A stretch of 63,061 bases of DNA, counting the filler, from Rhabdomonas costata (lineage: Eukaryota), in NCBI GenBank assembly GCA_019059605.1. It is 37 parts of 37 records of this genome, joined end to end, with 100 filler letters (N's around TTAATTAATTAA, not from the genome) between each part and the next. Parts side by side here need not be neighbours in the genome. Positions count along the whole stretch, not along the records: positions 39,281 to 40,888 come from JAHMHO010012098.1; 36 more parts are not named here. One strand, 5' to 3'. Below, piece by piece: positions 39,181 to 40,888 of the stretch; position 1 is the stretch's first letter, and every line of letters begins with the position of its first letter. Position numbers and translations under genes: made by a program. The notes beneath the pieces are model-generated. The model did not search any database. It was not told where the DNA came from and saw only the letters and a program-made list of their open reading frames with translations.

Positions 39181-39282
39181 NNNNNNNNNNNNNNNNNNNN
39201 NNNNNNNNNNNNNNNNNNNNNNNNTTAATTAATTAANNNNNNNNNNNNNNNNNNNNNNNNNNNNNNNNNNNNNNNNNNNNAA

Positions 39283-39429
39283 AAATGTTATGATTATAAT
39301 TTATGTGTAAAACCACATGTTTATTGTTCAAGTGATTGTTATTCTTTGATCTACTTATCAAATCTGAATAGATTTCTTCATGAAAATGATGAAATAGCAT
39401 TTAATGAAGATGATAAAATGAATGAATAG
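39283..39429 (+). CDS. C-terminal part of an AT-rich Cys-containing hypothetical protein (putatively viral)
   Basis: KCYDYNLCVKPHVYCSSDCYSL...EDDKMNE*, convergent with the next ORF. Confidence 0.55.
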   Translation, partial: KCYDYNLCVKPHVYCSSDCYSLIYLSNLNRFLHENDEIAFNEDDKMNE

Positions 39430-39457
39430 TTGTTTGATAATACAATTATTCATTCAT
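39418..39457. terminator. 16-bp hairpin between convergent genes (giant-virus-style 3'-end signal)
   Basis: ATGAATGAATAGTTGT / ACAATTATTCATTCAT, one G-U pair, 8-nt loop. Confidence 0.6.
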
Positions 39458-39508
39458 CTGAAAATTAAGTTCAATCAATTTTCTATTATCTCTATCAAGA
39501 TATTCATA

Positions 39509-39805
39509 TTATTTTTCTATTTTCTCTTTTAAATTTTTTACTCCTAAATCAATTTCATTAATTTCTTGTTTAAGTGAACTTAATTTAATAGATCTTTTAT
39601 AGTAATCTATGATATAAGTATCTGCATTATATGTTTTAGTAAAGATTTCATTGAAGACCTCACGGTGTTTGTCATATCTTTCCTCTTTCATTACTTCAAG
39701 TTCAGCTATAGCAAATTTACATTTATTGATCAGTTCATTATGGTCTTTAATATATTCATCTAGGATTTGTTTTTTTAATTGATCTGGAGCATTCATATTT
39801 TCCAT
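39509..39805 (-). CDS. 98-aa coiled-coil hypothetical protein (putatively viral)
   Basis: Complete intronless AT-rich ORF with an A/T-only leader and no Shine-Dalgarno. Confidence 0.75.
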   Translation of the reverse strand: MENMNAPDQLKKQILDEYIKDHNELINKCKFAIAELEVMKEERYDKHREVFNEIFTKTYNADTYIIDYYKRSIKLSSLKQEINEIDLGVKNLKEKIEK

Positions 39806-39819
39806 ATTTATATTAATAC

Positions 39820-39878
39820 TATATAAATTATTTTTTAAGTATTAATAATTTATATAATTTTCAAAATATATAAATTAT
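39820..39878. terminator. AT-rich palindromes downstream of the protease gene
   Basis: ATAATTTATATA (39845-39856) pairs with TATATAAATTAT (39867-39878), or alternatively with 39820-39831. Confidence 0.5.
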
Positions 39879-39934
39879 AAATTATGCGAATTATATTTAT
39901 TTAAATTTATATGTTTTTATGTTTCATCATAAAA

Positions 39935-40696
39935 TTAATTTACTATTGCGTAAAATTCAAAACACATATTAGGATTTAAGGCATATTCATATTTCATTCT
40001 GAAATATCCATTATTGGCAAAATCAGAACCATGACTGTTTAATATTTCAAATGTTTGTGTTTCATCATCATATCCCGTAATTACCACTGCATGCCCTCCG
40101 AGCATCTCGTCGTCTGGAAGTGGTAAGCTTAATATATCATTCTCTTTTGTTAATCTAAAAAAGTTTGTGTATACCATCATACCAAAAAGCACAGGTTGAT
40201 GTAAATGACCTATTATGTACTTAATAGCATATTTCGATGGTATAATCTGCTTGTAACTGGTTATAGGACATTTATTTATGGTGATTGCTTCTTCAAATAT
40301 TTCTTTAGGTGGTACAGAATTAACTTTTTCAATTTCATATGGATACTTCACTTCATCAATATAATGATAGTCATTTAATGCTGTAAAAATAGATTTTAAT
40401 GTCGCGCCGTGGTCTTCAACTGGCAACATTCTATTGTTATCAACATATCTAGTACAGAAATACAAATATAATCTGGAGATATTACATTGAACTTTATCAG
40501 ATATTTTCAAGAATGATGCTGTTGCATTTGCACTGCACGAATTACACGATAACTGATCGTATATTTGTGCTACTTTATCCTTTAAGCTATAACTGATTGG
40601 TAAGTCTACCATTCCTTCGCAACATATTGAAACTCTCCTGTCTATTGGCTCAGGTTTAGAACGTTTTAAACCAAAATATAACTTCTTTTCGGTCAT
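39935..40696 (-). CDS. Papain-like cysteine peptidase (C1 family), NCLDV/bacterial type
   Basis: YDQLSCNSCSANA (oxyanion Gln, catalytic Cys), SRLYLY...R, GGHAVVITGYDD (His), ILNSHG..F...GYF (Asn). No signal peptide or introns. Confidence 0.92.
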   Translation of the reverse strand: MTEKKLYFGLKRSKPEPIDRRVSICCEGMVDLPISYSLKDKVAQIYDQLSCNSCSANATASFLKISDKVQCNISRLYLYFCTRYVDNNRMLPVEDHGATLKSIFTALNDYHYIDEVKYPYEIEKVNSVPPKEIFEEAITINKCPITSYKQIIPSKYAIKYIIGHLHQPVLFGMMVYTNFFRLTKENDILSLPLPDDEMLGGHAVVITGYDDETQTFEILNSHGSDFANNGYFRMKYEYALNPNMCFEFYAIVN

Positions 40697-40829
40697 TTCT
40701 TATAAATACATAAGAAAATTTTATTGCGACCAATAAGTAGTTATAAATAAAGATGCTATTTAGAAAATCACATACATAATAAGAGATATGATTTCTAAAA
40801 TCATTCTATAAACTAACTTTAGATTTTTA

Positions 40830-40888
40830 TTATTGTATTATACAACATGTTTTATGTTTATCATCAACACAACCATAATTTTCTTTAG
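40830..40888 (-). CDS. C-terminal end of a protein with a CaaX prenylation motif (...KHKTCCIIQ*)
   Basis: Frame KENYGCVDDKHKTCCIIQ TAA TAA, followed by an imperfect hairpin at 40759-40799. Confidence 0.5.

What the first reader, a model, noticed from the sequence alone, without database searches (positions are those of the whole stretch)
39281..40888. AT-rich contig resembling a giant-virus (NCLDV) genome fragment in a protist assembly
Seen: sharply lower GC than all neighbouring contigs, and four compact intronless ORFs or ORF ends with A/T-only leaders and no Shine-Dalgarno. They include a signal-less papain C1 peptidase and a protein ending in a eukaryotic CaaX box (CIIQ). Known: Mimiviridae are AT-rich, encode papain-like peptidases, and some infect flagellates. 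Inference: this is an uncharacterised giant virus infecting, eaten by, or endogenised in the host.
Basis: partly seen in the sequence, partly recalled or inferred. Interest (0 to 1): 0.75.

Follow-up and report, generated by a model that had tools for sequence, protein, structure and literature searches.

The report
Polinton-like virus fragment, not giant virus
This AT-rich 1.6-kb contig in a eukaryote assembly is most likely a piece of a small (about 19 kb or more) polinton-like virus that carries an extra papain-type protease, rather than a fragment of a giant virus.

Summary
Contig 39281-40888 has GC 0.256, against 0.46-0.61 in the other 36 unrelated, length-sorted contigs. It holds two whole ORFs and two ORF ends, and no Shine-Dalgarno sequence.

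The giant-virus (NCLDV) reading is not supported.
- The 253-aa C1 peptidase belongs to a tight metagenomic family: 60 of 65 hits are 55-72% identical.
- All three long contexts of that family (10-19 kb) are small polinton-type elements. They carry a double-jelly-roll capsid protein whose fold is most like virophage capsid proteins, a clan-CE (adenain/Ulp1) protease, an rve integrase, and either a protein-primed PolB or an SF1 helicase. One also has a PLA2 domain.
- The contig's other assessable genes have homologs at the same relative positions in these elements. These are the 98-aa ORF and the Cys-rich ORF end.
- The protease gene shares their upstream ATTTTCT motif.
- The only NCLDV-like relative is 32% identical and sits on a long branch.
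- A scan of genomes of 185,579 prokaryote species found none.
- The CaaX ending is not conserved in the likely homologs.

The gene set fits the published Gossevirus (GKS1) group, but that membership was not tested. The tandem C1 peptidase is not mentioned in the papers I could read. Whether the DNA is integrated or free could not be tested.

The parts
39281..40888 (.). Whole 1608-bp AT-rich contig (GC 0.256). About 79% of it is coding, with intergenic gaps of 79, 129 and 133 nt.
39283..39429 (+). 3' end (48 codons plus stop) of a Cys-rich small ORF, convergent with the protease operon. It is a homolog of the 121-aa ORF that lies convergent just downstream of the C1 peptidase in L015, L019, L014, L012 and L010.
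   Evidence: BLASTP against L015:10776-11138(-): 48% identity over 46 aa, E 1e-11. tblastn hits are.
39418..39457 (.). Inverted repeat (16-nt arms, 94% complementary, 8-nt loop) that overlaps the stop codon of the Cys-rich ORF, between the two convergent genes. It may be a transcript-end hairpin (inference).
   Evidence: I4
39509..39805 (-). 98-aa ORF with predicted helical or coiled-coil character. It is a weak positional homolog of the 132-aa ORF directly downstream of the C1 peptidase in L002/L003, and of a 130-aa ORF in L015.
   Evidence: BLASTP against L002:1352-1747: 31% over 77 aa, E 4e-6. tblastn of the L002 ORF against the window: E 2.8e-6. No Pfam family reaches its cut-off. The word-based search found no relatives.
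39935..40696 (-). 253-aa papain-family (C1, clan CA) cysteine peptidase with the catalytic set Gln48, Cys54, His202 and Asn220. It has no signal peptide and no I29-type propeptide, but a conserved N-terminal extension of about 40 aa.
   Evidence: Pfam PF00112 E 7.3e-13. Family alignment: Q48, C54 and H202 are invariant and N220 is kept in 90% or more of rows. Alignment to solved chain 3ois_A, E 9e-20, with the YDQ..SC.ANA, GGHAV and NS.G blocks matched. 60 relatives at 55-72% identity.
40713..40719 (-). ATTTTCT promoter-like motif 17-23 nt upstream of the peptidase ATG. The same motif lies 6-28 nt upstream of the capsid gene, the peptidase and other genes in related loci.
   Evidence: 9 of 37 upstream regions carry it, against 0.71 expected; 0 of 2000 random draws reached 9.
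40830..40886 (-). Last 18 codons plus stop (…YGCVDDKHKTCCIIQ*) of the gene upstream of the peptidase. By position it may be the tail of the clan-CE (adenain/Ulp1-like) maturation protease, but similarity to those tails (…KKYGERCINVI*) is too weak to show it.
   Evidence: tblastn with the 18 residues gave only chance-level hits.

Best explanation
The contig is a fragment of a small double-jelly-roll-capsid DNA virus of the polinton / polinton-like-virus (PLV) kind. Its relatives are at least 19 kb, and their gene set best fits the published Gossevirus (GKS1) group. It is present in a eukaryote's assembly either as an integrated copy or as free viral DNA.

The fragment covers the downstream edge of the capsid-morphogenesis block. 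In order it holds [tail of an upstream gene, possibly the clan-CE maturation protease], then [C1 papain-type peptidase], then [98-aa helical protein], facing [Cys-rich small protein] on the other strand.

Shown here:
- The peptidase has an intact catalytic set and is under strong conservation.
- In related elements it lies directly after the clan-CE protease.
- It carries the same upstream motif as the capsid gene.

Inferred:
- It is a late-expressed accessory protease that works inside the infected cell, since it has no signal peptide.
- I rate a role in breaking down host or virus-factory proteins for release or counter-defence, as baculovirus V-CATH does (recalled), at about 40%.
- I rate a second virion-maturation protease at about 30%, and something else at about 30%.
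- Relatives encode an rve integrase, so integration into the host genome is plausible but not shown for this copy.
For: 1. Family. 65 proteins matched at E<=0.001 among 334 candidates, and 60 of them are 55-72% identical to the window peptidase.
2. Tree. In a 49-row tree the window protein nests inside a 43-row clade (support 100/99) that also holds the peptidases of L002, L015 and L016.
3. Long contexts. All 3 contexts of 10 kb or more are polinton-type.
   - L015 has a 550-aa protein whose model (pLDDT 66) best matches virophage capsid proteins: Qinghai Lake virophage at 3.3e-13 in BFVD and Sputnik 3j26_A at 1.9e-12 in PDB. Mavirus and NCLDV capsids follow.
   - L015 also has a PLA2 domain (PF08398, 2.1e-8) and an HNH domain.
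   - All three loci have an rve integrase, at 2e-12, 2.6e-13 and 1.1e-9.
   - L015 and L016 have a 1376/1445-aa ORF with pPolB-type features: Atlas score 0.97, with 20 of 30 hits in DNA_pol_B_2/Endonuclease_7 clusters. PolB-like motifs are also seen by eye.
   - L002 instead has an SF1-helicase ORF.
4. Clan-CE protease. A 149-aa ORF with invariant HW..YDS..Q-x6-CG lies directly upstream of the peptidase in 11 of the 16 loci that have at least 150 nt upstream. Its model (pLDDT 82) gives 29 top VIA rows that are all clan CE, with Z from 5.0 to 10.1, then a drop to Z 4.0. Adenain 4wx4 scores Z 10.1, rmsd 2.9 over 119 aa.
5. Collinearity of the window contig. The Cys-rich end matches the convergent ORF downstream of the peptidase in L015, L019, L010, L014 and L012 (E 5e-9 to 2e-7; E 1e-11 pairwise). 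The 98-aa ORF matches the ORF directly downstream in L002/L003.
6. Shared upstream motif ATTTTCT.
7. Composition. The related loci have GC 0.26-0.36.
8. Literature (passages read). [quoted passage not shown] About half carry a phospholipase, some carry pPolB plus RVE, and the modelled capsid is most like Sputnik's. They occur in lakes and inside oomycete and chrysophyte genomes (PMC7805220; PMC10120064; 10.64898/2026.06.19.733378).
Against: - The contig holds no hallmark gene (capsid, ATPase, polymerase or integrase), so the assignment rests on one strongly and two weakly conserved genes plus their order.
- The window peptidase's own 17-row subclade has no long context.
- A distant C1 relative sits in an NCLDV-like contig. 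Such genes are exchanged between small and giant viruses, so a giant virus carrying this cassette is not excluded.
- No close relative turned up in IMG/VR viral contigs or in the phage collection.
- The packaging ATPase and penton of L015 are only inferred. There is a Walker A/B by eye and a weak PHROG terminase hit at 8.9e-4, but no Pfam or PDB hit.
- The L015 capsid protein has no Pfam hit, and its fold-match TM-scores are low (0.32-0.39).
- Membership in GKS1 was not tested, because no GKS1 profile was at hand.
- The 98-aa ORF found no relatives in the 5.8-billion-protein word search.
Confidence: 0.75

Rival explanations
1. One reading: a fragment of a giant virus (NCLDV, Mimiviridae-like) genome that infects, was eaten by, or is endogenised in the host.
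For: - The contig is AT-rich and compact, with A/T-only leaders.
- An NCLDV-like IMG/VR contig (L001) encodes a C1-domain protein 32% identical to the window peptidase. L001 also carries Asn synthase, PCNA, a C48 Ulp1 protease and a BspA-LRR+Hint protein.
- Fold hits of the related capsid protein include many NCLDV capsid proteins.
Against: - 3 of 3 long contexts of the tight family are elements of about 10-19 kb with an rve integrase and a pPolB or SF1 helicase.
- L001 lies outside the 43-row family clade on a branch of length 2.45.
- The contig's gene order matches the small elements.
- No NCLDV marker is on the contig or anywhere else in the window: 0 hits outside the contig for 140 locus ORFs.
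Confidence: 0.07
2. A bona fide virophage (Maveriviricetes, mavirus-like or EMALE-like) rather than a gossevirus-type PLV. It would then depend on a co-infecting giant virus.
For: - The best fold matches of the related capsid protein are virophage capsids.
- The gene set pPolB + rve + clan-CE protease is that of mavirus (PMC11071308 passages; PMC8547959 passage).
- GC is low, and conserved short upstream motifs exist.
Against: - The capsid protein has no hit to Pfam's virophage capsid families at E<=0.1.
- Published work says gossevirus capsid models also resemble Sputnik most (PMC10120064), so the fold match does not discriminate.
- The pPolB is about 1400 aa. That is polinton-length, not the shorter mavirus length (PMC11071308 passage).
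- The plain TCTA motif is not enriched upstream of genes (10 of 37 against 6.7 expected; 242 of 2000 draws reached it). I recall TCTA as the mavirus/CroV late-promoter core.
Confidence: 0.12
3. DNA of an AT-rich bacterium, phage or cellular contaminant (for example Legionellales, Rickettsiales or an AT-rich eukaryote) carrying a xylellain-like C1 peptidase.
For: - The closest solved structure by sequence is chain 3ois_A, deposited simply as 'Cysteine protease' (E 9e-20 for the single protein, 2.1e-28 for the family profile). I recall it as bacterial (xylellain of Xylella); no call confirmed that.
- A PHROG 'peptidase' family matches at 1.7e-13.
- More distant relatives have GC-rich, bacterial-looking composition (P0065-P0068).
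Against: - A scan of one genome for each of 185,579 prokaryote species found 0 relatives of the family: 42 pattern matches, none confirmed.
- There is no Shine-Dalgarno sequence.
- The family's contexts carry eukaryotic-virus genes.
- The bacterial-looking relatives are only 27-28% identical and fall in the outgroup.
Confidence: 0.03

Closest known systems
Gossevirus (GKS1) group of polinton-like viruses. References: Bellas & Sommaruga 2021, PMC7805220; Bellas et al. 2023, PMC10120064; preprint 10.64898/2026.06.19.733378. Passages read only.
   Same: - Genomes of about 15-30 kb found in lake metagenomes and inside protist genomes.
- A cysteine protease is a core gene.
- A phospholipase domain is present in about half of members.
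- Some members carry pPolB plus RVE, others a helicase.
- The modelled capsid protein is most like Sputnik's.
All of these features are seen in L015, L002 and L016.
   Different: - Membership was not tested, because no GKS1 capsid or ATPase profile was at hand.
- The main texts I read do not mention a papain/C1 peptidase (0 occurrences of 'papain' or 'peptidase').
- Their 'cysteine protease' protein clusters are listed in supplements that I could not open, so one of them might already be this gene.
Maverick/Polinton elements (Polintoviricetes)
   Same: - The defining gene set: pPolB, rve integrase, Ulp1/adenain-type protease and DJR capsid (PMC11071308 passage).
- The L015 polymerase's nearest feature clusters are eukaryote (arthropod) DNA_pol_B_2/Endonuclease_7 proteins.
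   Different: - Classical Mavericks are in animal genomes, whereas these elements are AT-rich, come from aquatic metagenomes and turn up in a eukaryote assembly whose organism I could not name.
- These elements carry an extra C1 peptidase.
- One relative (L002) has an SF1 helicase in place of pPolB.
Mavirus-type virophages and endogenous mavirus-like elements of Cafeteria (PMC8547959; passage read)
   Same: Low GC, about 20 kb, rve integrase plus pPolB plus maturation cysteine protease, and integration into flagellate genomes.
   Different: - There is no sequence-level match of the capsid protein to Pfam's virophage capsid families.
- The pPolB is long.
- Dependence on a giant virus is unknown.
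Papain-family (C1A) peptidases. The nearest solved chain is 3ois_A ('Cysteine protease'). Cathepsin B-like enzymes are more distant. Baculovirus V-CATH (recalled) is a viral precedent.
   Same: The fold family and the catalytic Gln/Cys/His/Asn set.
   Different: - No signal peptide and no I29 propeptide.
- About 250 aa, stand-alone, with a conserved N-terminal extension of about 40 aa.
- Only 27-32% identical to anything outside the family.
C1-domain protein of an NCLDV-like contig (L001)
   Same: Peptidase_C1 domain (5.3e-9) in an AT-rich viral context.
   Different: 32% identity, 351 aa with a different N-terminal part, and outside the family clade.

Membership tests
Peptidase family C1 (papain family, clan CA) | Profile match above the curated cut-off | tested here: met
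   PF00112 at 49.5 bits against a cut-off of 20.7, E 7.3e-13, residues 40-239.
Peptidase family C1 (papain family, clan CA) | Catalytic Cys and His with the oxyanion-hole Gln and the orienting Asn | tested here: met
   Q48, C54 and H202 are invariant and N220 is kept in 90% or more of 29 family members. The blocks align with YDQ..GSCTANA / GGHAV / NSWG of 3ois_A.
Peptidase family C1 (papain family, clan CA) | Secretory signal and I29-type propeptide, typical of cathepsins but not defining | tested here: not met
   The N-terminus MTEKKLYFGLKRSKPEP... is hydrophilic, there is no Inhibitor_I29 hit, and the domain starts at residue 40. This was judged by eye and by Pfam only.
NCLDV (Nucleocytoviricota) genome fragment | NCLDV hallmark genes (NCLDV MCP, PolB, A32, VLTF3) on the same molecule or bin | not testable with these tools
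None is on the 1.6-kb contig, and no ORF of the related loci hits any other contig of the window.
NCLDV (Nucleocytoviricota) genome fragment | Closest relatives of its genes lie in NCLDV genomes | tested here: not met
   3 of 3 long contexts are polinton-type. The NCLDV-like L001 protein is 32% identical and outside the clade.
Polinton / polinton-like virus (small DJR-capsid eukaryotic virus) | [quoted passage not shown] | tested here: met
   This was tested for relatives, not for the window contig itself. The L015 550-aa model matches Sputnik 3j26_A at 1.9e-12 and a virophage MCP at 3.3e-13. Atlas features score 0.93. A homologous C-terminal part lies upstream of the proteases in L003.
Polinton / polinton-like virus (small DJR-capsid eukaryotic virus) | Clan-CE (Ulp1/adenain) maturation protease | tested here: met
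   The relatives' 149-aa ORF has invariant HW, YDS and Q-x6-CG. VIA gives Z 10.1 to adenain, and the top 29 rows are all clan CE. Peptidase_C5 matches 2 of 8 members, best E 1.1e-4. In the window only an 18-codon tail of the upstream gene exists, and its identity is unproven.
Polinton / polinton-like virus (small DJR-capsid eukaryotic virus) | Integrase (rve) and a replication protein (pPolB or helicase) | tested here: met
   rve in L015, L002 and L016 (2e-12, 2.6e-13, 1.1e-9). pPolB-like features in L015 and L016; note there is no Pfam DNA_pol_B_2 hit itself. SF1 helicase in L002.
Polinton / polinton-like virus (small DJR-capsid eukaryotic virus) | FtsK/A32-type packaging ATPase and penton protein | tested here: inconclusive
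   The 223-aa ORF has AGTNQGKT and LFILED by eye and a weak PHROG terminase hit at 8.9e-4. There is no Pfam or PDB hit. The penton was not identified.
Polinton / polinton-like virus (small DJR-capsid eukaryotic virus) | The window contig is collinear with such elements | tested here: met
   The peptidase, the 98-aa ORF and the Cys-rich ORF end all have homologs in the same order and orientation.
Gossevirus (GKS1) group | Capsid protein detected by the GKS1 profile, or ATPase placed in the gossevirus clade | not testable with these tools
   No GKS1 profile or named reference sequences were at hand. Only gene content and the Sputnik-like capsid model agree with the published description.
Virophage (Maveriviricetes) | Virophage-type capsid protein by sequence profile | tested here: not met
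   The L015 capsid protein has no Pfam hit at E<=0.1, although Pfam holds the virophage capsid families. The similarity is at fold level only.
CaaX-prenylated protein | Conserved C-terminal Cys-aliphatic-aliphatic-X in the family | tested here: not met
   The window ORF ends CIIQ. The ORFs at the same position in 11 loci end INII or INVI with no Cys at -4. Homology of the 18-residue tail to them is itself unproven.

The most novel reading that the evidence does not exclude
A widespread lineage of gossevirus-like polinton-like viruses carries two cysteine proteases of different clans in tandem. One is the canonical clan-CE capsid-maturation protease. Directly after it lies a conserved, signal-less clan-CA (C1 papain) peptidase driven by the same late-type promoter motif as the capsid gene.

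The C1 enzyme would be an unreported accessory module of small eukaryotic DNA viruses. It might act on host or giant-virus proteins in release, entry or counter-defence. This contig would mark such a virus in a new eukaryotic host.
Probability: 0.35. Interest if true: 0.45.

Novelty: new member of a known kind. Interest (0 to 1): 0.3.

Why it matters
- It corrects a giant-virus call to a polinton-like virus, a group now known to invade protist genomes on a large scale.
- It adds one more eukaryote assembly that carries such an element.
- The modest new point is the C1 peptidase. It is strongly conserved, has dozens of diverged copies in metagenomes, and sits next to the canonical maturation protease.
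- Neither my two-term full-text searches nor the main texts I read mention it.
- Its substrate is unknown and easy to test.

Tried and rejected
- IMG/VR scans with the window peptidase, the capsid alignment and two out-family relatives found nothing. The family alignment found only the distant L001.
- The phage collection gave no hit by tblastn with the capsid protein.
- The prokaryote genome scan found no relative.
- PDB sequence searches with the capsid protein, the polymerase and the ATPase candidate found nothing meaningful.
- Rfam on the whole window gave 0 matches.
- L015 shows no terminal inverted repeats among those reported at 30 nt or more. The stored locus lacks 378 nt of the contig, and the 1170-aa ORF runs off one end, so the genome is incomplete.
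- The word-based homolog search with the 98-aa ORF found none.
- The mimivirus-type TCTA core is not enriched upstream of genes.
- The alignment of more distant peptidases (A4) was too diverged for a locus scan.
- Earlier scan notes held nothing by place, sequence or words.
- The host organism could not be named. Pfam shows only eukaryote-type domains on other contigs.
- Whole-genome binning and read mapping were unavailable.
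Full report
WHAT IS THERE. The window is not one stretch of genome. It is 37 contigs of about 1600 bases (1595-1615) joined by N/TTAATTAATTAA spacers. The finding is one of them, at 39281-40888. Its GC is 0.256, while the other 36 contigs lie between 0.461 and 0.614. The flanks are unrelated contigs and carry no context.

The contig holds four coding pieces:
- On the + strand at 39283-39429, the last 48 codons of a Cys-rich ORF.
- On the - strand at 39805-39509, a 98-aa ORF.
- On the - strand at 40696-39935, a 253-aa ORF.
- On the - strand at 40886-40830, the last 18 codons of an ORF ending TCCIIQ*.

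The intergenic gaps are 79, 129 and 133 nt. They are almost pure A/T and lack a Shine-Dalgarno sequence. Other contigs of the window encode eukaryote-type proteins: a WD40 propeller, an MFS transporter and a NIF phosphatase.

THE PROTEASE. The 253-aa protein is a papain-family C1 peptidase (PF00112, E 7.3e-13, above the cut-off). Its Gln48, Cys54, His202 and Asn220 are conserved in 29 aligned relatives. They align with the catalytic blocks of the closest solved enzyme, 3ois_A (E 9e-20).

It has no signal peptide or I29 propeptide, but a conserved N-terminal extension of about 40 aa. A search of 5.8 billion proteins gave 65 hits among 334 candidates. Sixty of them are 55-72% identical and come mostly from short metagenome contigs. 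The remaining five are 27-29% identical. A full-library profile search shows a graded superfamily beyond that: 272 representatives at E<=1e-30. The nearest of these are again about 250 aa long with AT-type composition.

CONTEXT OF THE FAMILY. A metagenome scan gave 19 loci, with GC 0.26-0.36. Three are long: L015 (18.7 kb of a 19-kb contig), L002 (10 kb) and L016 (10.4 kb).

L015 encodes the following:
- A 550-aa protein with no Pfam or PDB sequence hit.
  - Its AlphaFold model (pLDDT 66) matches double-jelly-roll capsid proteins.
  - Virophage capsids come first: Qinghai Lake virophage at 3.3e-13, Sputnik 3j26_A at 1.9e-12, and mavirus at 1.8e-10.
  - Adintovirus, NCLDV and PRD1 capsids follow.
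  - TM-scores are low (0.32-0.39), but the list is uniform, and language-model features agree.
- A PLA2 domain (2.1e-8), an HNH endonuclease and an rve integrase (2e-12).
- A 223-aa ORF with Walker A/B motifs by eye and a weak terminase hit. I take it to be the packaging ATPase, but this is not proven.
- A 1376-aa ORF.
  - Its C-terminal 800 residues show PolB-like motifs by eye.
  - It scores 0.97 in the Atlas against clusters that carry DNA_pol_B_2 and Endonuclease_7, in 20 of 30 hits.
  - Pfam itself gave only a weak Endonuclease_7 hit.

L016 shares this polymerase (55% identity) and the integrase (69%). L002 shares the integrase (44%) but has an SF1-helicase ORF instead of the polymerase.

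Directly upstream of the C1 peptidase, in 11 of the 16 loci that have at least 150 nt upstream, lies a 149-aa ORF. It has invariant HW, YDS and Q-x6-CG. Its model (pLDDT 82) matches clan-CE proteases:
- Adenain scores Z 10.1, ASFV pS273R 8.8, poxvirus I7L 8.1 and Ulp1 7.2.
- The top 29 rows are all clan CE, followed by a drop to Z 4.
- Foldseek's best hit is adenain at 1.5e-3.
- Pfam Peptidase_C5 matches 2 of 8 members.

These elements therefore carry the canonical polinton/virophage maturation protease and, in addition, the C1 peptidase.

THE WINDOW CONTIG IS COLLINEAR WITH THEM.
- Its Cys-rich ORF end matches the 121-aa ORF that lies convergent just downstream of the peptidase in L015 (48% over 46 aa, E 1e-11). 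It also matches L019, L010, L014 and L012.
- Its 98-aa ORF matches the 132-aa ORF directly downstream of the peptidase in L002/L003 (31% over 77 aa, E 4e-6).
- The 18-codon tail upstream of the peptidase is too short to assign. The ORFs at that position in relatives end INII or INVI, so the CaaX box is not a conserved feature.
- Seventeen to twenty-three nt upstream of the peptidase start, the contig has ATTTTCT.
  - That motif occurs in 9 of 37 upstream regions of the window contig and the three long loci, against 0.71 expected; 0 of 2000 random draws reached 9.
  - It precedes the capsid gene among others.
  - A second motif, TGTATAG, precedes 6 of 37 genes against 0.29 expected.
- No ORF of the related loci (140 tried) hits any other contig in the window.

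TREE. The tree had 49 rows:
- the window protein;
- 40 of the 42 proteins P0004-P0045 (the two under 230 aa were dropped);
- the L015 and L016 peptidases (L002's was dropped as identical to P0020);
- L001 and P0064-P0068.

The window protein lies inside a 43-row clade with support 100/99. That clade holds all three long contexts. The window's own 17-row subclade (100/98) has no long context. L001 and the other relatives lie outside on long branches.

L001 is the only IMG/VR relative (32% identity). Its gene content looks like that of an NCLDV: Asn synthase, PCNA, a C48 protease and a BspA-LRR+Hint protein. Giant viruses therefore do carry distant cousins of this peptidase, but the window's gene is not one of them. 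A scan of genomes of 185,579 prokaryote species found no relative.

WHAT IT IS CLOSEST TO. I read passages only of the following papers.
- Polintons and virophages use a Ulp1-family protease, and polinton pPolBs are about twice as long as mavirus ones (PMC11071308).
- The Gossevirus (GKS1) group is described as follows (PMC7805220; PMC10120064; preprint 10.64898/2026.06.19.733378; preprint 10.64898/2026.10.13.758929).
  - About half of members have a phospholipase, and some have pPolB plus RVE.
  - Its capsid model is most like Sputnik's.
  - It is abundant in lakes and integrated in oomycete and chrysophyte genomes.
  - It is related to Maverick-Polintons.

The three long loci fit this description point by point. 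I could not run the GKS1 profile, so membership is inferred.

None of these main texts mentions a papain or C1 peptidase: 'papain' and 'peptidase' occur 0 times. Full-text searches gave nothing relevant:
- 'polinton-like' + 'papain': 8 papers.
- 'virophage' + 'papain-like': 12 papers.
- 'cathepsin' + 'polinton': 3 papers.
- 'virophage' + 'C1 peptidase': 0 papers.

The only related remark concerns papain-like peptidases in unrelated heliorhodopsin elements of Cymbomonas (PMC10675990). Supplements are closed. One of the three 'cysteine protease' clusters of PMC7805220 could already be this gene.

HOW IT LIKELY WORKS.
- Shown: the peptidase has an intact active site and is strongly conserved. It is placed after the maturation protease and has a capsid-type upstream motif.
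- Inferred: it is expressed late with the structural genes, acts inside the cell, and is an accessory protease. I favour degradation of host or virus-factory proteins for release or counter-defence. A second maturation protease is the main alternative.
- Untested: whether this copy is integrated or free, and whether the virus needs a giant virus.

VERDICT. The viral, non-bacterial nature is supported, but the giant-virus label and the CaaX reading are not. This is a new member of a known kind, a polinton-like virus fragment, with a modestly new detail in the tandem C1 peptidase.

Noticed in passing
L015:3560-18426, L002, L016 and window 40713-40719: Two distinct short motifs are enriched 6-38 nt upstream of start codons. 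ATTTTCT occurs in 9 of 37 regions and precedes the capsid gene, the peptidase and other genes. TGTATAG occurs in 6 of 37 and precedes the SF1 helicase of L002 and several small ORFs. This suggests two promoter classes in these elements.
   Followed up: partly
L002:3516-7853 versus L015:12887-17017 and L016:4769-9106: Elements with closely related C1 peptidase, clan-CE protease and rve integrase carry different replication genes at the same position. L002 has an SF1-helicase ORF, while L015 and L016 have a pPolB-like ORF. This is module swapping.
   Followed up: partly
L006, L017, L018, L016, L009: In 5 of the 16 loci with enough upstream sequence, the gene before the C1 peptidase is not the clan-CE protease. 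Three of them share another ORF ending ...IPKI or ...IPIF. The peptidase's neighbourhood is therefore mosaic.
   Followed up: no
window 39418-39457: A 16-nt-arm hairpin (94% complementary) overlaps the stop codon of the Cys-rich ORF, between the convergent genes. It may be a shared transcript-end signal.
   Followed up: no
L002:9500-10058 and L015:18500-18664: GC rises at one end of two loci, to 0.38-0.52 in the last 560 nt of L002 and to 0.46 in the last 164 nt of L015. This could be a terminal repeat or a host junction.
   Followed up: no
L001:2229-3200 and L001:9815-10870: The NCLDV-like contig L001 also encodes both a clan-CE (C48 Ulp1) protease and a C1-domain protein, though they are not adjacent.
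   Followed up: no
P0103, P0111, P0117, P0121: Some strong matches to the peptidase profile are long (761-1181 aa), GC-type proteins with 2-3 matched stretches. These are multi-domain or repeated C1 peptidases of unknown source.
   Followed up: no
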